A stretch of DNA of 6,360 bases from a virus (lineage: Duplodnaviria; Heunggongvirae; Uroviricota; Caudoviricetes): IMG/VR virus record IMGVR_UViG_2695420732_000016. One strand, written 5' to 3'. Positions 1 to 6,360 of this stretch are shown here, in pieces (within the stretch, counting starts at the first letter, position 1; each line of letters begins with the position of its first letter). Both the position numbers and the translations under genes were made by a program. The notes below the pieces were generated by a model. That model saw only the letters and a list, made by a program, of their open reading frames with translations, was not told the origin of the DNA and searched no databases.

Positions 1-299
1 TCCGGCAGCGGAAGGCCTTCACCATATGCCATGCTGTTTGACTGCCCCGCCAGAACCACAACAAAGTAATACTCCGGGTCTCTGGTGGCGCTGATTACTG
101 TGCCTTCTCCATCCGACGGCTTCACCAACACAGGTGTGGTGACATCACCTTCCGCCGCAATGGCCTGCATCAGAGTATAAGGCGTGATGGCCACCGGGCT
201 GCCAAATGGCTGCCACCCCTCCTTCAGTTTTTGTGTCAGCTTTTCCGCAAGATCTGACGGCGACGCCGCCCTGACCACATCGTAGTGTTTAAATACCAT
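1..299 (-). CDS. NanS-p-like prophage sialate O-acetylesterase, 5' partial (N-terminal domain plus start of SGNH esterase domain); continues beyond window start
   Basis: Manual minus-strand translation from ATG at 299..297 is open for 99 codons to the window edge: MVFKHYDVVRAASPSDLAEKLTQKLKEGWQPFGSPVAITPYTLMQAIAAEGDVTTPVLVKPSDGEGTVISATRDPEYYFVVVLAGQSNSMAYGEGLPLP. The VVLAGQSN motif matches block I of sialate O-acetylesterase/SGNH hydrolases, and the preceding ~80 aa resemble the DUF1737-type N-terminal domain of prophage NanS-p proteins. Not in the ORF track because no stop lies in the window. Possible SD GGTGGAAAAGG upstream. Confidence 0.6.
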   Translation of the reverse strand, partial: MVFKHYDVVRAASPSDLAEKLTQKLKEGWQPFGSPVAITPYTLMQAIAAEGDVTTPVLVKPSDGEGTVISATRDPEYYFVVVLAGQSNSMAYGEGLPLP

Positions 300-1521
300 G
301 ACCTTTTCCACCATATAAAGGAACAATAAATTCTTTTCTGATAGAGATTTAAATAAAAATACATTATTTTACAAAAAAATAATATCCATTACAAAAACAT
401 CCGATTTTTTTATATTCCCGCTCATCCTGCTAATTTGTATTACAAAAAAATGAAACAACTTGAACCAAAGTGATACAAAATTAGAAAAGAAAACCCCAGG
501 AAGACAAAGAAGACGATCTTTTTCAATGAGTTACACTGATTTATTGACTATGATTTTTAGCAAAACAATCGAAAGCAATGTGTACCGAGAAGGTTAAAAG
601 ATGGAATGGATAGTTATTGACACAGTGATATGCCCATCAAGCGGAATAACGTTTTCAACTGTATGGTGTAAAATAAAGTTGATAATCTGGTATCAGTCAG
701 ATGTGTTCCTGCCACCCGGAAGTATTCTCACACCTGTTAACTCAGGTGTGATTATGGATAATAAGCTGCTTCCATTAACCATTTACAACGTGACACCATT
801 TAACAGAAAATTCTGGTTCCTTATCAGAAATCAAAAAGAGTGCCCCGGGAATTCAGTTAAAACAAAAATAAAATGCCATAATAGTATGTGTGTACTGATG
901 ATATGCCCGTATGGATTATATAAGTAACAACATATGAATACATAACAGATAAACTATTGACCTTGAGGCTCATCCATATAAAGAAGAGCTCTCCGAAGAG
1001 GTGTGTATTTGCATGCACATTCCTTTTTTGCTCTATGTCATGACCTCCGGCGACTCTATCCCGGCACCAGCAAACCCGCATCATTCTCGTTTCCGGTGTC
1101 TCTAAAACCACAGCACACCTGCCCCCCCGCTGAGGGAGGGAAGCACTGTATCCGTACACTCAGCAACAGAAATACCACCTGCTCACTGCGCTACATATCA
1201 GCAACAATTTTATACCCGAACATTATCATTCAACAGCATGGTTCACAACAACATCATAACCCAGGAAACGAGAATCAGATCAAAAAAACAGAAATTTTAC
1301 ATGAAAAATACTGTTTATTAATATTGATAGCGTCGTACCACAAAATACGATGAATTATCCCTGAACTTAACATTAATGCCAGTATGTATTGCCCGCTGGT
1401 ATCAGCGGGCGCTTTAAGAGATCGTATTCATGACTACCTGGGAAAAAGCTATTTTACTATTGTCAGTTTTTATTGCAGCCTTATCTGTCTACTTGCTTCA
1501 CAGCCTGAACTGACCATATCT
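300..1521. other. AT-rich, apparently non-coding tract between the methyltransferase and the NanS-p-like gene, with a more GC-rich core around 1000-1200
   Basis: Strongly A+T-rich with A-tracts; TTACAAAAA occurs three times near 369, 390 and 440. The three track ORFs here (601..927 +, 857..1159 -, 1003..1353 +) translate to low-complexity, Cys/Trp/Ile-rich sequences and two use GTG starts. No tRNA T-loop motif (GGTTCGAATCC or its complement) seen. Confidence 0.5.
1391..1410. other. Perfect 8-bp GC-rich hairpin (GCCCGCTG-GTAT-CAGCGGGC) about 110 nt downstream of the methyltransferase stop
   Basis: Inverted repeat read directly. No clean U-tract follows on either strand (minus: AAUACAUACUGG; plus: GCUUUAAGAG), so it is not a canonical intrinsic terminator; possibly an RNA stability or processing element. 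Confidence 0.4.
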
Positions 1522-2598
1522 TTATCCATCCTTCCCGTCATCAATTGAGCATGTAAGGATGTGACTAATCTCCTTAACGGTCTGCGCAAAACGTTCTGCC
1601 TCCAGTTCAACACCAGTTGCACGACGCCCGAGCGCCATAGCTGCTTTTATGGTTGAGCCAGAACCCATGAAAAAATCCGCCACCAGGTCACCCGGACGAC
1701 TGCTCGCGCAGATTATCTGCCGCAGCATTTCTGCCGGTTTTTCGCACGGATGTTTCCCTGGATAGTACTGCACCGGTTTATGCGTCCACACATCGGTGTA
1801 CGGCACCTGCACCGTCACACCGAAATACCGCCGCAAATTTTTATATTCACTCAGCAGTTCCATGTACTGCCGGTTCAGCTCACTGTATGTGCTGACCAGT
1901 TGGTAATGGGACTTTTCCAGTTCTCCCCGCTGATGTTTCTCTTCTGCCACCCGGGCAAACAGCGACTGTAATTTCAGATAATCGCTTTCGTTCGGTAGCT
2001 GCCACTGACTGGCACTGAACCAGTGCGACACCATGTTTTTCTTTCCTGTGGCATCTGCAATCTGTTTTGCCGTTATCCCAAGAGCAGCACGCGCATCACG
2101 AAAGTAAGAAATCAGCGGGGCCATCACATGCTGTTTCAGTGCCCTGCCCTTCGCCTCATCGCCATCATCTTTCGGACGATACGGCCCCTGATAATGTTCC
2201 GCGAACAGAATGCGTTCTGTGGCCGGAAAATACGCCCGCAGGCTTTCCTTGTTGCACCCGTTCCAGCGTCCGGACGGCTTCGCCCAGATAATATGGTTCA
2301 GCACATTGAAGCGTTCACGCATCATGATTTCAATGTCAGATGCCAGGCGATGGCCACAGAACAGGTAAAGACTTCCGGCAGGTTTCAGCACCCGCCAGAA
2401 CTGCGCCAGACACTGGTCCAGCCACTTCAGGTAATCATCGTCGCCCTTCCACTGGTTATCCCAGCCCTCGGGCTTCACTTTAAAGTATGGCGGGTCTGTG
2501 ACTATCAGATCGACAGAGTTTTCCGGTAAGGTCTGGATAAATTCCAGGCAATCAGCGTTGATTAACTCACAACTGGATATTTTTACAGTATTAAGCAT
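1522..2598 (-). CDS. DNA methyltransferase, beta-class N6-adenine/N4-cytosine family (DPPY motif favours N6-adenine); orphan prophage methyltransferase
   Basis: 358-aa ORF. Catalytic motif IV LIVTDPPYF near the N-terminus (aa ~32-39) and AdoMet motif I FFMGSGST near the C-terminus (aa ~300) give the beta-class order IV then I. No adjacent restriction endonuclease ORF. An in-frame TGA sits immediately upstream of the ATG at 2598, so this is the first possible start; the SD is weak. Confidence 0.9.
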   Translation of the reverse strand: MLNTVKISSCELINADCLEFIQTLPENSVDLIVTDPPYFKVKPEGWDNQWKGDDDYLKWLDQCLAQFWRVLKPAGSLYLFCGHRLASDIEIMMRERFNVLNHIIWAKPSGRWNGCNKESLRAYFPATERILFAEHYQGPYRPKDDGDEAKGRALKQHVMAPLISYFRDARAALGITAKQIADATGKKNMVSHWFSASQWQLPNESDYLKLQSLFARVAEEKHQRGELEKSHYQLVSTYSELNRQYMELLSEYKNLRRYFGVTVQVPYTDVWTHKPVQYYPGKHPCEKPAEMLRQIICASSRPGDLVADFFMGSGSTIKAAMALGRRATGVELEAERFAQTVKEISHILTCSIDDGKDG

Positions 2599-2607
2599 GG
2601 ATCATTA

Positions 2608-2649
2608 AGCCTGTCTCTGATAGGCTCATTCTGCTTTTGCGCAAAGCAG
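2608..2649 (-). promoter_or_regulatory. Two inverted repeats in the methyltransferase 5' region: AGCCT-N9-AGGCT (2608-2626) over the expected SD, and an imperfect palindrome CTGCTTTTGCGCAAAGCAG (2631-2649) overlapping a weak sigma70-like promoter
   Basis: Both repeats read directly. On the minus strand a possible -35 TTGCGC, 16-bp spacer, -10 TATCAG lies about 30 nt upstream of the ATG. The promoter match is weak. Confidence 0.3.
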
Positions 2650-2734
2650 TGGGCCTGAGGTTTGCTTGTGAACCCAACGCATGAGCAGATGGCTGGTAGG
2701 TGCCCCTAACACCCACCAGCCGCCCATTTACCAC

Positions 2735-2762
2735 AAATAAAAAAGCCTTCACTGCGGAAGGC
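2735..2762 (-). terminator. Rho-independent terminator at the end of the 65-aa ORF
   Basis: Minus strand reads GCCUUC-CGCAGU-GAAGGC followed by UUUUUUAUUU (plus-strand stem 2745-2762, A-tract 2735-2744). The stop codon of the 65-aa ORF lies inside the 3' arm of the stem. Confidence 0.65.
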
Positions 2763-2946
2763 GTCTGTAACAACCGAACTGATAGTCTGCCAGACCCGCC
2801 ATAACAAGCTGGGTCAGTATTAACTGGCAGCGTTCGCGTGAAAGGTAAGTATTCTGCGCAATCTCCCCGACTGTCGCCGGGTCGGTAACGCTTAATTCAT
2901 TAAACACCACTCTGGCGGTTTCTGTCATATCCTGCTGTTTTAGCAT
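2749..2946 (-). CDS. Small putative winged-helix DNA-binding protein (FaeA/PapI-like pattern), 65 aa
   Basis: ORF with ATG at 2946 and a purine-rich SD-like stretch (AAAGGGAAAAAAGAC) upstream. The segment VFNELSVTDPATVGEIAQNTYLSRERCQLILTQLVMAGLADY resembles the PapI/FaeA winged-helix pattern (ILEFLN...[28 protein letters not shown]). The assignment is from recalled family patterns, not a search. Confidence 0.45.
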   Translation of the reverse strand: MLKQQDMTETARVVFNELSVTDPATVGEIAQNTYLSRERCQLILTQLVMAGLADYQFGCYRRLPQ

Positions 2947-3068
2947 GTCTTTTTTCCCTTTTGGTTAACGTGACATACCAATAACTCTTGTCCAAAAAGC
3001 CAGTAAGCAGAAAGACCGGTATTCGCAACCACCAGCGCATTTAACGCCCCGTGCCGTTTTTCAGTCAT

Positions 3069-3093
3069 AAAAAAACCCGCAAAAAGCGGGCTC
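3069..3093 (-). terminator. Rho-independent terminator about 100 nt downstream of the Q-like gene (tR'-like position)
   Basis: Minus strand reads (GAG)CCCGC-UUUUU-GCGGG followed by UUUUUUU (plus-strand stem 3076-3090, A-tract 3069-3075). Short GC stem with a 7-U tail; position matches the terminator of the short PR' transcript in lambdoid phages. Confidence 0.55.
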
Positions 3094-3169
3094 TTTCAAA
3101 TGTCCATGTCTGCTATTCGCCTCGCGGTACAGCTTTGCGAAGCTTACCGGAATTGAAGCAGTTTTTACG

Positions 3170-3736
3170 TCAAAAAGCAATAACTTTTTTCTCTATACCA
3201 AAAGCCATAACCATTGGTTTGTACAAAATAAATTCTGCCACCTTTAGCCAATGCTCAATGCGTCTTTCACAGGTTCTTAAACTCCATTCCGGATGTGCAT
3301 CATTCAGCAGTTCAGCCATTTTGCGCTTAGTCATCCCCCGCCCCACATAACGCTGACTCAGAACATTGAGCAGCCCGGGATAACCTGCCAGTACTTCACC
3401 AATAACCCTGTCGATTATTAACGCCTCTGAATCGGTACAATGTGCCAGCCAGCTTTTTTGATTGCCGTTGATCATATCCCGCAAAAAAGCCTCAAGTTCA
3501 GGTTTGTCCAGACCCGCTTTTTTCATCCTCCGGAGCGCCTCGTTAATTGCCGTTTTTGTCAGCTTTTTAGAGGTCAGTAATTGGTTGAACATATTTCCCG
3601 TCTTACCGTCGCCAATATACGACCAACGCCCCCACATACGCAGTTTCCCCTGGATCCAGACACTTTCCAGCGTTTTCAGGCGTAAATGCTCACCGCTTTT
3701 GCCTGTAATTTCCGGGTATATCATATTTATGCTCAC
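3170..3736 (-). CDS. Q-like late-gene antitermination protein (putative)
   Basis: 188-aa ORF directly downstream of rusA and upstream of tandem terminators and late-type cargo, the canonical lambdoid Q position. N-terminal LRMWGRWS resembles the conserved ERWGAWA motif of P22 gp23-type Q proteins. The track start at 3736 is GTG, overlapping the rusA stop as GTGA; an in-frame ATG at 3724 (MIYPEITG...) is an alternative start. Confidence 0.6.
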   Translation of the reverse strand: MSINMIYPEITGKSGEHLRLKTLESVWIQGKLRMWGRWSYIGDGKTGNMFNQLLTSKKLTKTAINEALRRMKKAGLDKPELEAFLRDMINGNQKSWLAHCTDSEALIIDRVIGEVLAGYPGLLNVLSQRYVGRGMTKRKMAELLNDAHPEWSLRTCERRIEHWLKVAEFILYKPMVMAFGIEKKVIAF

Positions 3737-4092
3737 TCACTTTCAATTTTGTAAATCTTCACGCCCAGCCGCCCACCAGAAACGAGCTGACCGCGCACAA
3801 TATTGATTTCATCAAACTGCTCGTCGTCTATGAGAAGTCCGGCATGCGTCAGCGCATCCAGCGGTGCTTTCAGGATATTGTCCAGATCACGACGGCGCTT
3901 ATCCGGTGGCTCTGCAATAATCTTTATCGCCAGCCTTCCGGACAGGCTTAATTTCAGCCGCTGCTGGCGAACAATAAGCGCCACAGCCCGGCGATAACGC
4001 TTTCCCTCCTCCGAGATAAAATATGTGCTGCCACGGCGTCGCCAGTAAGTGTTCACCGTCGGCGGGTAAGGTAAAACCAAATCTATGAGCAT
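3733..4092 (-). CDS. rusA: Crossover junction endodeoxyribonuclease RusA (Holliday junction resolvase)
   Basis: 119-aa ORF with RusA hallmarks: LPYPPTVN near the N-terminus, the catalytic-region block DKRRRDLDN, DALTHAGL, DDEQ and GGRLGV, matching E. coli RusA (LPWPPSNN, DRRRRDLDN, DALTKAGF, DDAQ, GGRLEL). Good SD (AAGAGGTGA) about 5 nt before the ATG; starts 12 nt after the upstream gene's stop. Confidence 0.92.
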   Translation of the reverse strand: MLIDLVLPYPPTVNTYWRRRGSTYFISEEGKRYRRAVALIVRQQRLKLSLSGRLAIKIIAEPPDKRRRDLDNILKAPLDALTHAGLLIDDEQFDEINIVRGQLVSGGRLGVKIYKIESE

Positions 4093-4104
4093 CAGTCACC
4101 TCTT

Positions 4105-5154
4105 TTACCCAAGCACGCCAGTTGCAAAGGCGTGATCAAGAAAACGAAAAATTAAATCAACCTGAGAACCATGCTTTTCTTCGAACGCCAGCGGATCCGC
4201 ATGAAGCTCGTTGTGATGCTCCCGACACAGCGGTAGCGTGAAAATATCGTGAGATTTTGTCCCCATTCCGCCCTGACCATGACCAATCAGGTGATGGGGA
4301 TCGTCGGCTGGCTTACCACAACACGCACACGGCTGAGTCTTCACCCAGCGTGTGTATTTCTCGTTAACCCAGCGGCGACGTTTAGGTCGTTTCATGAAAG
4401 ATTCCGGAGACTCAGGATCAACGGCAATGCTGACCACCGTCTTTTCCTGTGGTGGGTTCTGTTGCTGGTGGGCGTGAGGCAGCGGCGCAAGATTTTTTGT
4501 GCGCTGTTTCAGTATGCTGATGGCGGTCTGCTCTCCCGGTACGATGTCGCTTTCGCGGTACAAGGAGCGGATTTTTTCCGCACGTAACCCCAGAGAACGA
4601 CGTAATACTGCCTCCGGAAGCGCGTCCGCCACCTGATTGCAGACCGCCCACCAGGATAATTCAGCCAGCGACAATTCCCGCTCCTGCGTGCCATTCATTG
4701 CATGGCGTATGACGTCAATCATCCATGCTGACAGGTTTTGATGAGCAAGTTGCCCGAGTGATTCGGATGTCTGGTCACGCAACTGGTTGTCGCAGTGCCA
4801 GCACAACACCATCGCGCCGGTACCGTAACGATGTATGACGATTTCACTGTGATGATAGTCACCATGAGGCCACTGGCAGGATTTGACATGACGCAACAGC
4901 CAGTCAGACAGTGCCCCAGCGCCGCCAGCAGCACGAATCACCCGCTCATCGCTGAAAAATGGCAGAAATGATTTATCCTCCGCCAGCGGCTGGCGAACGG
5001 CAGGGACGACTCCGGACGGCAGACCGCGCATGCTTTTCGGTTCAGGCTCCACCAGCACTCGAGGGTTATGAAATACTTGCATGGATTCACGGCCCGGCCT
5101 AAGGACCACCAGCCCGAGTTCCGGTACCAGAACAGGTCGAAGTAATATCCGCAC
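4105..5154 (-). CDS. DUF968/YdfU-like prophage protein with C-terminal HNH-type zinc-finger nuclease motif
   Basis: C-terminus CACCGKPADDPHHLIGHGQGGMGTKSHDIFTLPLCREHHNELH is an HNH-like Cys/His motif; the organisation matches Qin-prophage YdfU. The track frame is open from ATG 5226 (373 aa), but that start overlaps the upstream ORF by 71 nt and adds a low-complexity 24-aa tail. I favour GTG at 5154..5152, preceded by GGAGGTAAC and placed 1 nt after the upstream TAA, giving 349 aa. ATG at 5082 is another alternative. Confidence 0.8.
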   Translation of the reverse strand: MRILLRPVLVPELGLVVLRPGRESMQVFHNPRVLVEPEPKSMRGLPSGVVPAVRQPLAEDKSFLPFFSDERVIRAAGGAGALSDWLLRHVKSCQWPHGDYHHSEIVIHRYGTGAMVLCWHCDNQLRDQTSESLGQLAHQNLSAWMIDVIRHAMNGTQERELSLAELSWWAVCNQVADALPEAVLRRSLGLRAEKIRSLYRESDIVPGEQTAISILKQRTKNLAPLPHAHQQQNPPQEKTVVSIAVDPESPESFMKRPKRRRWVNEKYTRWVKTQPCACCGKPADDPHHLIGHGQGGMGTKSHDIFTLPLCREHHNELHADPLAFEEKHGSQVDLIFRFLDHAFATGVLG

Positions 5155-5155
5155 G

Positions 5156-5428
5156 TTACCTCCAGATCCGTTGCTGGTATGTGCGGGATGGGCGCGGTGA
5201 GCGTTCGGAATAAGGGAGCCTGACATAGATTATCCAGTGACGATAATCGAGGCTGAGGGCTTTCTTAATCTCGTATCCGCGTCTGCGGTAGTTATGAATT
5301 AGCCATTCGGCCTGTTCTTCAGTACATGATGGGTGTTGGTACCAGTCGGTTTTAAATGCGTGTGAACGCCGCCCATGCCGGATGGCAAGGTCGGTATCAG
5401 AATTGTGAAATTTGGTTTTGTGCACCAT
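5156..5428 (-). CDS. Small hypothetical prophage protein (Rem-like by position between hokD and the ydfU-like gene)
   Basis: 90-aa ORF (MVHKTKFHNSDTDLAIRHGRR...). Assignment is by synteny with the Qin-prophage order hokD-rem-ydfU only. Weak SD (AGAGAAAACAG), and a hairpin lies just upstream of the start. Confidence 0.5.
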   Translation of the reverse strand: MVHKTKFHNSDTDLAIRHGRRSHAFKTDWYQHPSCTEEQAEWLIHNYRRRGYEIKKALSLDYRHWIIYVRLPYSERSPRPSRTYQQRIWR

Positions 5429-5438
5429 CTGTTTTCTC

Positions 5439-5453
5439 TGCTGGCGCAGCAGG
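5439..5453 (-). promoter_or_regulatory. Palindrome CTGCTGGCGCAGCAG about 11 nt upstream of the Rem-like start codon
   Basis: 6-bp arms CTGCTG/CAGCAG around a GCG centre, read directly; overlaps the expected ribosome-binding region. Function unknown. Confidence 0.3.
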
Positions 5454-5500
5454 TGTCAGGTGTTCAGGCTGACGTGCGAATTGTAAACCAGAATGCCAGG

Positions 5501-5527
5501 AAAAAACAAAACCCGCCGAAGCGGGTT
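5501..5527 (-). terminator. Rho-independent terminator of the hok transcript
   Basis: Minus strand reads AACCCGC-UUCG-GCGGGUU followed by UUGUUUUUU: a 7-bp stem with a UUCG tetraloop and U-tract, about 70-95 nt downstream of the hokD stop. Confidence 0.75.
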
Positions 5528-5566
5528 AAGTGCGGGTGCGTTGAGGATGCCTGACTCATCAGAGGT

Positions 5567-5588
5567 GGCGAGGGATTTCTCCCTCGCC
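5567..5588 (-). other. Perfect 9-bp GC-rich hairpin in the hokD 3' UTR (GGCGAGGGA-TTTC-TCCCTCGCC), candidate fold-back (fbi-like) element
   Basis: Inverted repeat read directly, 8 nt downstream of the hokD stop. hok-family mRNAs carry structured 3' ends that pair with the 5' leader. Confidence 0.45.
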
Positions 5589-5595
5589 TGGTCTC

Positions 5596-5751
5596 TTACT
5601 CCTCAGGTTCGTAAGCTGTGAAGACAGCGACCTCCGTCTGGCCGGTTCGGATTCGTACCTCGCAGAGGTCTTTCCTCGTTACCAGTGCCGTCACTATGAC
5701 GGTTAAACAGATGACGATCAGGGCGATTAACATCGCCTTTTGCTGCTTCAT
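5596..5751 (-). CDS. hokD: Hok-family type I toxin (small membrane-depolarising peptide), HokD/RelF-like
   Basis: 51-aa product MKQQKAMLIALIVICLTVIVTALVTRKDLCEVRIRTGQTEVAVFTAYEPEE: a single transmembrane helix followed by the conserved TRK.LCE.R...G..EVA.F.AYE core of Hok/Gef. SD AAGGAG 9 nt upstream of ATG 5751..5749. Confidence 0.9.
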   Translation of the reverse strand: MKQQKAMLIALIVICLTVIVTALVTRKDLCEVRIRTGQTEVAVFTAYEPEE

Positions 5752-5808
5752 AGCCTGCTTCTCCTTGCCTTTCGGCACGTAAGAGGCTAACCTACATGTG
5801 CAAAGCAT
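5596..5808 (-). CDS. Mok-like in-frame N-terminally extended reading frame of hokD (putative translational coupling frame)
   Basis: The 70-aa track ORF begins at ATG 5808 with SD GAGG 8 nt upstream and shares hokD's frame and stop. This matches my recollection that chromosomal mok frames share their stop with hok. The mok SD can pair with GCCUC at 5783-5787 in a hairpin that encloses the start codon. Confidence 0.5.
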   Translation of the reverse strand: MLCTCRLASYVPKGKEKQAMKQQKAMLIALIVICLTVIVTALVTRKDLCEVRIRTGQTEVAVFTAYEPEE

Positions 5809-5927
5809 GAAATTGGCCTCAGATTAATGTTAAGCGTCTTGCCGGACGCGTAATGTTAACTGGGGCTTTTCTCTATCTGCCTTTTGGTGTTCATACCTGA
5901 GGCAGATAGCCTCAAGCACCCGCAGCA

Positions 5928-5956
5928 ATTCTAACTATCCAATAGATCAATGCCAA
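5928..5956 (-). promoter_or_regulatory. Candidate sigma70 promoter for the hok/mok mRNA
   Basis: Minus strand reads TTGGCA (-35, plus-strand 5951-5956), a 17-bp spacer, then TAGAAT (-10, plus-strand 5928-5933). The predicted start near 5920 gives a leader of ~170 nt and a transcript of ~420 nt to the terminator, consistent with hok mRNA size. Confidence 0.5.
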
Positions 5957-6138
5957 CTTCTTTTCCTGCAACATCTCTCATCATAAGTGACCCAAATTCA
6001 TCCAATCAGCACAAAAGAAACATTTAAAGCGTGAATGCTACCGAACGTTCATTTCAATTACATCGTTTTGATTTTTAACAGTTTTCACCTCAACAAATCA
6101 AATGGCATTAGCATTCATCATGGAAGAAAGACTGATAA

Positions 6139-6190
6139 AAATGATCATTTTCAATGACTTATGATCACACCGGGTATTGCCAAGTCATTC
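6139..6190. repeat. Perfect 14-bp palindrome AAAATGATCATTTT (6139-6152) followed by an 8-bp inverted repeat AATGACTT/AAGTCATT (6153-6160 and 6183-6190) that flanks a second TGATCA
   Basis: Read directly; lies between the hok promoter and the IS left end. Possible operator remnant; function unknown. Confidence 0.35.
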
Positions 6191-6233
6191 CTTTTACGCC
6201 AGGATACCCACAAGTGAGTAGTCGAGGAGAGTT

Positions 6234-6360
6234 TGAACCGCCCCGGAAATCCTGGAGACTAAACTCCCTGAGAAAGAGGTAAACAGGATGACTAAAAATA
6301 CTCGTTTTTCCCCCGAGGTCCGTCAACGGGCAGTTCGTATGGTTCTGGAAAGTCAGGGCG
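6234..6360 (+). mobile_element. Left end of an IS3-family insertion sequence (IS629/IS1203-like), continuing beyond the window
   Basis: TGAACCGCCCCGGAAATCCTGGAGACTAAACTCCCTGAGAAAGAGGTAAACAGG matches, from memory, the IS629-group left terminal repeat, with the orfA ATG 54 nt inside the end. Exact IS identity needs a database check. Confidence 0.75.
6288..6360 (+). CDS. IS3-family transposase OrfA (HTH domain), 5' partial, runs off window end
   Basis: Translation from ATG 6288 gives MTKNTRFSPEVRQRAVRMVLESQG, the characteristic N-terminus of IS629/IS3-group OrfA, preceded by SD AAGAGG. Not in the ORF track because there is no stop in the window. Confidence 0.85.
   Translation, partial: MTKNTRFSPEVRQRAVRMVLESQG

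What the first reader, a model, noticed from the sequence alone, without database searches (positions are those of the whole stretch)
5500..5956. Self-contained hok/mok-type type I toxin locus with promoter, SD-sequestering hairpin, structured 3' UTR and terminator; antisense Sok not located
The hokD-like toxin has the full mRNA architecture expected of an autonomous hok system: promoter TTGGCA-17-TAGAAT, a ~170-nt leader with nested hairpins (9-bp CTATCTGCC/GGCAGATAG at 5873-5909), an in-frame Mok-like extension whose SD is sequestered, a 9-bp 3' hairpin and a UUCG-loop terminator. My recollection is that K-12 hokD is a relBE-attached copy lacking its own upstream elements, which would make a complete locus here notable. 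I could not identify a convincing plus-strand promoter and terminator for a Sok antisense RNA.
Basis: partly seen in the sequence, partly recalled or inferred. Interest (0 to 1): 0.45.

Follow-up and report, generated by a model that had tools for sequence, protein, structure and literature searches.

The report
Complete prophage hok/mok/sok toxin–antitoxin locus

Summary
Window 5500-5956 (minus strand) holds a complete hok/mok/sok type I toxin–antitoxin locus.

- **Toxin:** the Hok peptide is identical to K-12 HokD and matches Pfam HOK_GEF.
- **Leader:** it matches Rfam RF01794 at 119 bits (gathering score 59).
- **mRNA switch:** folding reproduces the plasmid R1 model. In the full-length RNA, tac pairs with fbi and ucb covers the mok Shine-Dalgarno. 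After 3' trimming, tac pairs with ucb and the mok SD pairs with dcb.
- **Sok:** the "missing" antisense RNA lies on the plus strand at 5800-5870, downstream of a weak promoter, TTGCCT-17-TAACCT. The 45 nt upstream of its start are identical to those upstream of the annotated sokW of phage 933W.
- **Relatives:** the locus is 93% identical to hokW-sokW of 933W/Sp5, annotated in those phage records and shown functional in 2021.
- **K-12:** Homology to K-12 hokD stops at 5765, where relE takes over. That rearrangement is already published.
- **Frequency:** at least 2305 of 5426 complete E. coli genomes carry a near-full-length copy.

Verdict: already known, low interest. One side observation may merit follow-up. 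The Sok 5' recognition tail is a diversity hotspot among otherwise near-identical copies.

The parts
5951..5956 (-). hok mRNA promoter, -35 hexamer TTGGCA
   Evidence: Consensus scan, 10 of 12 matches with a 17-nt spacer. This hexamer lies outside the part of the cassette shared with 933W.
5928..5933 (-). hok mRNA promoter, -10 hexamer TAGAAT
   Evidence: A -10-like hexamer (TAGAAT in most, variants such as TATAAT or TACAAT in others) sits at a fixed distance from the tac element in the homologues.
5910..5921 (-). tac element, the 5' end of the hok mRNA (GGGUGCUUGAGG); transcription start inferred at 5921
   Evidence: Position 1 of the Rfam RF01794 match falls at 5921. It pairs with fbi in the full-length MFE and centroid structures, and with ucb in the truncated RNA. 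It is invariant in 91 unique loci.
5893..5919 (-). Metastable 5' hairpin of the nascent transcript, which sequesters tac
   Evidence: The first 30 nt fold into an 11-bp hairpin at -17.6 kcal/mol. This is replaced once 50 nt have been made. The concept comes from PMC9841398.
5873..5909 (-).
5862..5868 (-). ucb (anti-SD of mok), AAGCCCC
   Evidence: It pairs with the mok SD in the full-length fold and with tac in the truncated fold.
5765..5793 (+). Sok promoter: -35 TTGCCT (5765-5770), 17-nt spacer, -10 TAACCT (5788-5793)
   Evidence: The 45 nt upstream of the Sok start are identical to those upstream of the annotated sokW of 933W. The hexamers are positionally homologous to the regions upstream of the annotated K-12 sokC, sokB and sokE. 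Only 7 of 12 positions match consensus, so the scan did not report it.
5800..5870 (+). Sok antisense RNA: 5' single-stranded tail of about 9-15 nt, a long hairpin, then GGGGCUUUU(CUC)
   Evidence: Coordinates were transferred from the sokW misc_RNA features of 933W and VT2-Sakai. The fold is -30.2 kcal/mol, z = -4.9. This strand folds about 6-14 kcal/mol better than the opposite strand in all 31 unique homologues. RNAalifold gives 12 pairs, 3 with compensatory changes, and an invariant U-G.
5817..5820 (-). mok Shine-Dalgarno, GAGG
   Evidence: It lies 8 nt upstream of the mok ATG. It pairs with ucb in the full-length RNA and with dcb in the truncated RNA.
5596..5808 (-). mok reading frame (70 codons plus stop), in frame with hok
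   Evidence: The same arrangement is annotated for mokW/hokW and mokC/hokC. The mok ATG is invariant in 91 loci.
5783..5787 (-). dcb (GCCUC), closing the Sok-target hairpin 5820..5783 in the truncated mRNA
5761..5764 (-). hok Shine-Dalgarno, GGAG
5596..5751 (-). hok coding sequence, 51 aa, peptide identical to K-12 HokD
   Evidence: Pfam PF01848 HOK_GEF at 82.9 bits against a cut-off of 22. The nucleotide sequence is identical to K-12 hokD. RefSeq annotates it as hokD in strain ML775.
5567..5588 (-). 3' UTR stem-loop (9 bp, GAAA loop); the likely protective 3' end of the processed mRNA
   Evidence: One A-U to G-C double change relative to 933W keeps the stem. The role is inferred from R1 (PMC9841398).
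5534..5546 (-). fbi element, CCUCAACGCACCC
   Evidence: It pairs with tac through 12 pairs and one bulge. It sits 45-56 nt after the stop codon in nearly all homologues that keep both mRNA ends. A U:A to C:G covariation is seen in Photorhabdus and Pantoea.
5500..5527 (-). Intrinsic terminator of the hok mRNA (7-bp stem, UUCG loop, T run)
   Evidence: It is shared with K-12 hokD but not with 933W.

Best explanation
The region is an intact hok/mok/sok type I toxin–antitoxin cassette of the hokD/hokW subgroup. It sits in a lambdoid prophage of a Shiga-toxin-type E. coli lineage; bases 1-6235 of the window are 100% identical to E. coli O103 strain ML775.

What the sequence and the folding calculations show:
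- A sigma-70-like promoter would start a roughly 420-nt hok mRNA at about 5921, ending at the terminator at about 5503.
- The nascent 5' end first folds into a metastable hairpin.
- In the finished RNA, the 5' tac element pairs with the 3' fbi element, and the mok Shine-Dalgarno pairs with ucb. This form should be closed to translation.
- When the 3' end, including fbi, is removed in silico, tac pairs with ucb. The mok SD then moves into a hairpin with dcb that also carries the mok start codon. This is the Sok target.
- A roughly 71-nt Sok RNA is encoded on the opposite strand at 5800-5870, starting 9 nt inside mok. It has a free 5' tail and a terminator hairpin.

What is inferred from plasmid R1 hok/sok and from hokW-sokW:
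- Slow 3' exonucleolytic trimming activates the stable mRNA.
- Unstable Sok binds the activated form, blocks mok translation and therefore the coupled hok translation, and the duplex is cut by RNase III.
- When Sok transcription stops, Hok is made and depolarises the inner membrane.

The most likely biological role, by analogy with hokW-sokW of Sp5, is to aid prophage-induced lysis and phage release, and/or prophage retention.
For: Membership of the family:
- Pfam HOK_GEF at 82.9 bits.
- Rfam RF01794 at 119.1 bits against a gathering score of 59, covering 5921..5746.
- The locus is 93.4% identical to the annotated mokW/hokW/sokW of 933W and VT2-Sakai.

mRNA structure:
- tac:fbi and ucb:SDmok pair in the full-length MFE and centroid structures, z = -7.1.
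- tac:ucb and SDmok:dcb form after in-silico 3' truncation.
- The metastable 5' hairpin forms in the first 30 nt.
- tac and fbi covary, and fbi keeps a constant position, in almost all of 34 loci from six genera.

Sok:
- The fold has z = -4.9.
- The Sok strand is more stable than the opposite strand in 31 of 31 unique loci.
- Compensatory pairs and invariant G-U pairs are present.
- The promoter region is identical to that of sokW.

Published experiments:
- hokW-sokW was shown to be a functional type I TA that depends partly on RNase III and Hfq, and it increases Sp5 release (PMC8621323).
- The R1 mechanism is summarised in PMC9841398.
- The HokD peptide served as a previously characterised control in toxicity assays, where 42 of 45 homologues were toxic (bioRxiv 10.1101/2025.08.07.668861).
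Against: - No transcript data exist for this exact allele. Both transcription starts, the 3' processing step and Sok instability are inferred.
- The Sok promoter is a poor consensus match (7 of 12).
- Chromosomal hok loci tested earlier (hokA, hokB, hokC) did not mediate post-segregational killing, according to the summary in bioRxiv 10.1101/2025.08.07.668861. Activity in the native context is therefore not guaranteed.
- The Sok 5' tail differs from the characterised SokW at 7 positions. Kinetics could differ.
Confidence: 0.9

Rival explanations
1. The locus is structurally complete but biologically silent. On this view it is a passenger relic, like the chromosomal hok loci reported not to mediate post-segregational killing.
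For: [quoted passage not shown] The K-12 loci are IS-disrupted or truncated. An IS3-family element lies about 280 bp upstream of this locus.
Against: Every regulatory element is intact. tac, the mok ATG and the Sok +1 position are invariant in 91 unique copies, and diversity is low in the Sok hairpin. Compensatory changes keep the Sok hairpin, the tac:fbi pairing and the 3' stem-loop. The 93%-identical hokW-sokW is functional (PMC8621323). The IS lies outside the locus.
Confidence: 0.2
2. The cassette mainly serves the host as an abortive-infection defence against superinfecting phages. Host transcription shut-off by the incoming phage would deplete Sok and release Hok.
For: [quoted passage not shown]
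Against: The same preprint found no enrichment of hok near other defence systems. The only direct experiment on a close relative points to help with lysis and phage release (PMC8621323). Nothing in this sequence distinguishes the two roles, and they are not mutually exclusive.
Confidence: 0.15
3. The DNA upstream of 5808 is a relE remnant, so this is the K-12-type relBE-hokD arrangement rather than a hok leader.
For: None was found. The only grounds were the K-12 precedent.
Against: The Rfam leader match spans 5921..5746. The region aligns to the hokW and hokC leaders. BLAST against the K-12 region finds no similarity beyond 5765, and the pairwise alignment shows the break there.
Confidence: 0.01

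Closest known systems
hokW/mokW/sokW of Stx2 phages 933W and Sp5 (VT2-Sakai)
   Same: Identity is 93.4% from the hok -10 to just past fbi. The layout is the same: in-frame mok, and Sok starting 9 nt inside mok. The Sok promoter region and Sok hairpin are identical. Both are prophage-borne.
   Different: - Hok differs at 4 C-terminal residues and is identical to HokD instead.
- Seven substitutions fall in the Sok 5' tail, which is also the mok start region.
- The -35 of the hok promoter and the terminator are different sequences.
- The position in the phage genome differs. Here the cassette lies next to the DUF968/ydfU gene; in 933W it lies near the ygiW-like gene.
hokD (relF) of the E. coli K-12 Qin prophage
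   Same: The hok coding sequence is identical, and the 3' UTR, fbi and terminator are 98% identical over 5502-5765. The neighbourhood is syntenic, with the ydfU/DUF968 gene downstream.
   Different: K-12 lacks everything upstream of 5765: the hok promoter, tac, ucb, the sok gene, the mok start and the Sok -10. These are replaced by relBE. This rearrangement is published (PMC6379469).
hok/sok of plasmid R1, the archetype
   Same: The full set of elements and the same predicted conformational switch are present: tac/fbi, ucb, dcb, the metastable hairpin, the Sok-target hairpin, and Sok with a 5' tail and terminator hairpin (PMC9841398).
   Different: HokW, which differs from this toxin at only 4 residues, shares 44% identity with R1 Hok (PMC8621323). 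From my own recollection of the R1 sequence, not checked here, mok is out of frame with hok in R1, whereas it is in frame here. R1 is a plasmid and this is a prophage.
hokC (gef)/mokC/sokC of the E. coli chromosome
   Same: Hok identity is 82%. The leader is homologous, with the same tac, and mok is in frame. The annotated sokC starts 9 nt inside mokC.
   Different: The hokC Sok hairpin is 18 nt shorter. In K-12 an IS186 lies 20 bp downstream, which removes fbi.

Membership tests
hok/sok (Hok/Gef) type I toxin–antitoxin system | Toxin of about 50 aa with a single hydrophobic helix, belonging to the Hok/Gef protein family | tested here: met
   PF01848 HOK_GEF at 82.9 bits against a cut-off of 22, covering profile positions 1-42 of 42.
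hok/sok (Hok/Gef) type I toxin–antitoxin system | Conserved hok mRNA leader in sequence and structure | tested here: met
   Rfam RF01794 at 119.1 bits against a gathering score of 59, full model length 1-157, on the hok-sense strand 5921..5746.
hok/sok (Hok/Gef) type I toxin–antitoxin system | Overlapping upstream mok reading frame with its own SD | tested here: met
   A 70-codon ORF at 5808..5596, with GAGG 8 nt upstream. The ATG is invariant in 91 loci.
hok/sok (Hok/Gef) type I toxin–antitoxin system | hok translation is coupled to mok translation | not testable with these tools
   This needs reporter fusions or mok start-codon mutants.
hok/sok (Hok/Gef) type I toxin–antitoxin system | Long-range 5'-3' pairing (tac/fbi) that closes the full-length mRNA | tested here: met
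   Twelve pairs, 5921-5910 with 5534-5546, in the MFE and centroid structures. Position is conserved and a U:A to C:G covariation occurs across genera.
hok/sok (Hok/Gef) type I toxin–antitoxin system | Refolding after 3' trimming: tac/ucb stem, SDmok/dcb stem and an exposed Sok-target hairpin | tested here: met
   The in-silico truncations to 5549 and 5560 give the full tac:ucb and SDmok:dcb structures; the truncation to 5555 gives tac:ucb but pairs the mok SD elsewhere. Whether and where the RNA is processed in vivo cannot be tested here.
hok/sok (Hok/Gef) type I toxin–antitoxin system | Cis-encoded antisense Sok RNA with a promoter inside mok, a single-stranded 5' tail and a terminator hairpin | tested here: met
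   The gene maps to 5800-5870 by homology to the annotated sokW. The promoter region is identical to sokW. Fold and strand asymmetry support it, as does covariation. Transcription of this allele was not observed.
hok/sok (Hok/Gef) type I toxin–antitoxin system | Toxicity of Hok and neutralisation by Sok | not testable with these tools
   This has been shown for the 93%-identical hokW-sokW (PMC8621323). HokD is listed among previously characterised toxic controls (bioRxiv 10.1101/2025.08.07.668861).
K-12-type relBE-hokD operon | relE immediately upstream of hok, with no hok leader, mok start or sok | tested here: not met
   Homology to K-12 ends at 5765 and no relE-like sequence is present. A full leader is present.

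The most novel reading that the evidence does not exclude
The only part of the cassette that varies strongly between otherwise near-identical prophage copies is the Sok 5' recognition tail and its target, window 5800-5816.

The evidence:
- 22 variants occur among 120 viral contigs that share identical flanks.
- Nucleotide diversity there is 0.32, against 0.089 at hok third codon positions and 0.028 in the Sok hairpin.
- The mok ATG and the Sok +1 position stay invariant.

This may reflect diversifying selection for distinct Sok 'specificity alleles'. Such alleles would keep the several hok/sok copies in one genome (median 2, up to 11) from cross-neutralising each other, so that each prophage keeps its own private addiction or lysis timer. 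An analogous discrimination is, from my own recollection and not checked here, known for Sib/Ibs. I found no statement of it for prophage hok/sok in the papers I read.

The alternative is relaxed constraint. Complementarity is automatic for a cis-antisense pair, and the Mok N-terminus may be free to vary.
Probability: 0.3. Interest if true: 0.4.

Novelty: already known. Interest (0 to 1): 0.12.

Why it matters
It matters little as a discovery. The result confirms that this window carries a standard, intact prophage hok/sok module.

It gives precise coordinates for elements missing from the RefSeq annotation of the identical ML775 region, which lists only the hokD coding sequence. These include the Sok gene, mok, tac, fbi, ucb and dcb.

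It also shows concretely that K-12 hokD is the 3' remnant of such a cassette.

The only forward-looking point is the hypervariable Sok recognition tail. It could be tested as a specificity determinant among co-resident copies.

Tried and rejected
1. The consensus promoter and terminator scan did not report the Sok promoter or terminator. Both became clear only through homology to the annotated sokW and through folding.
2. The search for related loci with a six-protein Hok alignment (HokA-E plus the window) failed for lack of a conserved stretch. A three-protein alignment worked.
3. The primary paper on chromosomal hok loci (Pedersen and Gerdes 1999, PubMed 10361310) is not held. Its conclusions are cited only second-hand, or marked as my own recollection.
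4. The sub-threshold Rfam hits were set aside as terminator-like chance similarity: isrK at 27.8 and 19.8 bits against a gathering score of 50, plus rsmX and CsrC.
5. I looked in K-12 for a leader remnant beyond relBE, which would indicate a simple insertion. None was found in the 5-kb K-12 stretch compared, so the K-12 event was a replacement, or an insertion with a deletion.
6. I did not run the large protein-database searches or structure prediction. The Pfam, Rfam and DNA-level identities already settle the family.
7. The nucleotides mutated in the sokW -10 element in PMC8621323 appear only in a figure. I could not verify that they are the TAACCT hexamer named here.

Full report
**What is in the sequence.** On the minus strand of window 5500-5956 lies a 51-codon ORF (5751..5596). 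A 70-codon ORF starting at 5808 extends it in frame. The 51-aa peptide matches Pfam HOK_GEF at 82.9 bits, against a cut-off of 22. Its coding sequence is base-for-base identical to hokD of E. coli K-12. Upstream, Rfam family RF01794 ('sok') matches 5921..5746 over its full length at 119.1 bits, against a gathering score of 59, E = 1.5e-27. This match is on the hok-sense strand and ends at the hok AUG. It therefore identifies the conserved hok mRNA leader, not the antisense RNA itself.

As isolated consensus matches neither exceeds chance: one of each was found against about one expected. Position and conservation make them credible.
- The -10 ends 7 nt before model position 1 of the Rfam match.
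- A -10-like hexamer recurs at that distance in homologues.
- The terminator directly follows the fbi element and is shared with K-12 hokD.

**Where the window comes from.** Bases 1-6235 are 100% identical to the chromosome of E. coli O103 strain ML775. There the region is a lambdoid prophage segment containing iraM, a DNA methyltransferase, a DUF1133/Q-like gene, rusA, a DUF968 gene and hokD. From about 6236 the window instead carries the end of an IS3-family element that ML775 lacks at this site. The element lies about 280 bp upstream of the hok promoter and does not touch the locus.

**The mRNA switch.** The 419-nt RNA from 5921 to 5503 folds at -174.7 kcal/mol, with z = -7.1 against dinucleotide shuffles. 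The predicted structures follow the plasmid R1 model summarised in PMC9841398.
- *Full-length RNA.* In both the MFE and centroid structures, the first 12 nt (tac, 5921-5910) pair with 5534-5546 (fbi). The mok Shine-Dalgarno (GAGGC, 5820-5816) pairs with GCCCC at 5866-5862 (ucb).
- *Truncated RNA.* When the 3' end is removed in silico to 5549 or 5560, tac pairs with ucb (5862-5868). The mok SD moves into a hairpin with GCCUC at 5787-5783 (dcb). That hairpin carries the mok AUG in its stem and has a 7-nt loop. A truncation to 5555 also gives tac:ucb, but there the mok SD pairs elsewhere.
- *Nascent RNA.* The first 30 nt fold into a hairpin that sequesters tac (-17.6 kcal/mol). It is replaced as transcription proceeds.

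Across 34 loci from Escherichia, Shigella, Kluyvera, Pseudocitrobacter, Photorhabdus, Pantoea and Erwinia, fbi lies 45-56 nt after the stop codon in nearly all; the exceptions are an IS-flanked and a frameshifted copy. Where tac reads GGGCGC instead of GGGUGC, fbi reads GCGCCC instead of GCACCC. This is a compensatory change.

**Locating Sok.** The GenBank records of phages 933W and VT2-Sakai annotate mokW, hokW and a 71-nt 'SokW antisense RNA'. The window aligns to that locus at 93.4% identity, and sokW maps onto the plus strand at 5800-5870, starting 9 nt inside mok. K-12 sokC is annotated with the same 9-nt overlap.

The 45 nt upstream of 5800 are identical to those upstream of sokW. They contain TTGCCT (5765-5770), a 17-nt spacer and TAACCT (5788-5793). 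These hexamers are positionally homologous to the sequences upstream of K-12 sokC, sokB and sokE. They match only 7 of 12 consensus positions.

The plus-strand RNA folds into a free 5' tail, a long hairpin and GGGGCUUUUCUC, at -30.2 kcal/mol and z = -4.9. Two strand-specific tests support a real plus-strand RNA.
- In all 31 unique homologous loci, the Sok strand of this segment folds about 6-14 kcal/mol more stably than the hok strand. The stem uses G-U pairs, which become C-A mismatches on the other strand.
- RNAalifold on 16 diverse Sok sequences gives 12 consensus pairs. Three have compensatory double changes, and one U-G pair is invariant in 16 of 16.

**Relation to K-12 hokD.** K-12 aligns to the window only over 5502-5765 at 98% identity. 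That is from just upstream of the hok SD through hok, the 3' UTR, fbi and the terminator. Upstream of that point K-12 has relE. The DUF968/ydfU gene downstream is syntenic at 84% identity. No remnant of the leader was found in the 5-kb K-12 stretch compared. K-12 hokD is thus the 3' remnant of a cassette like this one. [quoted passage not shown]

**How common and how well known it is.** A query spanning the locus (5430-6000) is covered to at least 80% in 2305 of 5426 complete E. coli genomes. Genomes with any match hold a median of 2 and up to 11 places. The cassette also occurs in 110 phage records and in P1-like and other plasmids.

The near-identical hokW-sokW of Sp5 was shown experimentally to be a type I TA (PMC8621323).
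- Hok was toxic.
- sokW expressed from its own promoter was protective.
- Protection was lost when the sokW -10 was mutated and partly restored by sokW in trans.
- Protection depended partly on RNase III and Hfq.
- Mitomycin C reduced sokW RNA, raised HokW, and phage release halved without the locus.

A recent survey reports enrichment of hok in prophages (bioRxiv 10.1101/2025.08.07.668861).

**Mechanism and confidence.** I am about 90% confident that this is an intact hok/mok/sok module that works as in R1 and hokW. What is shown here is the presence, arrangement, conservation and predicted folding of every element. What is inferred is the two transcription starts, the 3' processing, Sok instability, mok-hok translational coupling, RNase III cleavage and the biological role.

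The main rival is that the locus is structurally intact but silent in vivo. Native chromosomal hokA, hokB and hokC were reported not to mediate killing. Purifying selection visible in the structures argues against this: tac, the mok ATG and Sok +1 are invariant, Sok-hairpin diversity is low, and compensatory changes occur. So does the activity of hokW-sokW. A role in phage defence is possible and not exclusive.

**Side observation.** Among 120 IMG/VR contigs chosen only for identical flanking 18-mers and 11-mers, the 24-26-nt segment between the mok SD and the Sok -10 has 22 variants, in about seven major classes. In 91 unique full-length loci, nucleotide diversity differs sharply by region:

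| Region | Nucleotide diversity |
|---|---|
| 5816-5800 (Sok 5' tail, mok start) | 0.32 |
| hok coding sequence | 0.067 |
| hok third codon positions | 0.089 |
| Sok hairpin | 0.028 |
| tac | 0 |

The mok ATG and the Sok +1 position are invariant. The window's Sok differs from SokW at seven positions, all within 5801-5815. This could mean specificity alleles that insulate co-resident copies, or merely relaxed constraint. The sample is not phylogenetically independent, and no cross-reaction was tested.

**Verdict.** The missing Sok has been found, and the K-12 comparison is verified. The feature is already known and very common, so interest is low.

Noticed in passing
window 5800-5816 (Sok 5' tail, SD-AUG spacer and codons 2-3 of mok): This is a diversity hotspot. 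There are 22 variants among 120 viral contigs that share identical flanks. Nucleotide diversity is 0.32, against 0.067 in hok and 0.028 in the Sok hairpin. The mok ATG and Sok +1 are invariant. All 7 differences from SokW fall here.
   Followed up: partly
window 6236-6360: This is the left end and the start of orfA (MTKNTRFSPEVRQRAV...) of an IS3-family insertion sequence. It is absent at this site in strain ML775, which is otherwise 100% identical. It lies about 280 bp upstream of the hok promoter. K-12 hokA, hokC and hokE are also flanked by IS elements.
   Followed up: partly
window 5746-5921, minus strand: The Rfam family named 'sok' (RF01794) matches the hok-sense strand from the mRNA 5' end to the hok AUG. 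A hit therefore marks the hok leader. The strand of the hit is opposite to that of the real Sok RNA.
   Followed up: yes
window 5928-5935 and 5528-5532 (cassette boundaries): Similarity to 933W runs only from the hok -10 to just past fbi. The -35 hexamer and the terminator differ between contexts. Many E. coli genomes lose similarity to the window exactly at 5933. The cassette appears to move without its own -35 and terminator.
   Followed up: partly
window 5375-5554, plus strand: RefSeq annotates a 59-aa 'hypothetical protein' (WP_001112732.1) that overlaps the hok terminator and fbi. It has no Pfam match and is probably a spurious call.
   Followed up: partly
window 3070-3143, minus strand: This is a sub-threshold isrK-like Rfam hit (19.8 bits against a gathering score of 50) with a strong terminator hairpin. 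It lies just downstream of the DUF1133/antiterminator-Q-like gene (3170-3736). It might be a short late-promoter leader RNA and terminator.
   Followed up: no
window 5567-5588, minus strand: The 3' UTR stem-loop shows an A-U to G-C double change relative to 933W, and a G-U in K-12 at the same pair. This is consistent with selection to keep the stem that should protect the processed mRNA.
   Followed up: partly
window 601-927, plus strand: This ORF is annotated in ML775 as the anti-adapter protein IraM, carried in the prophage. It gave no Pfam hit here.
   Followed up: no
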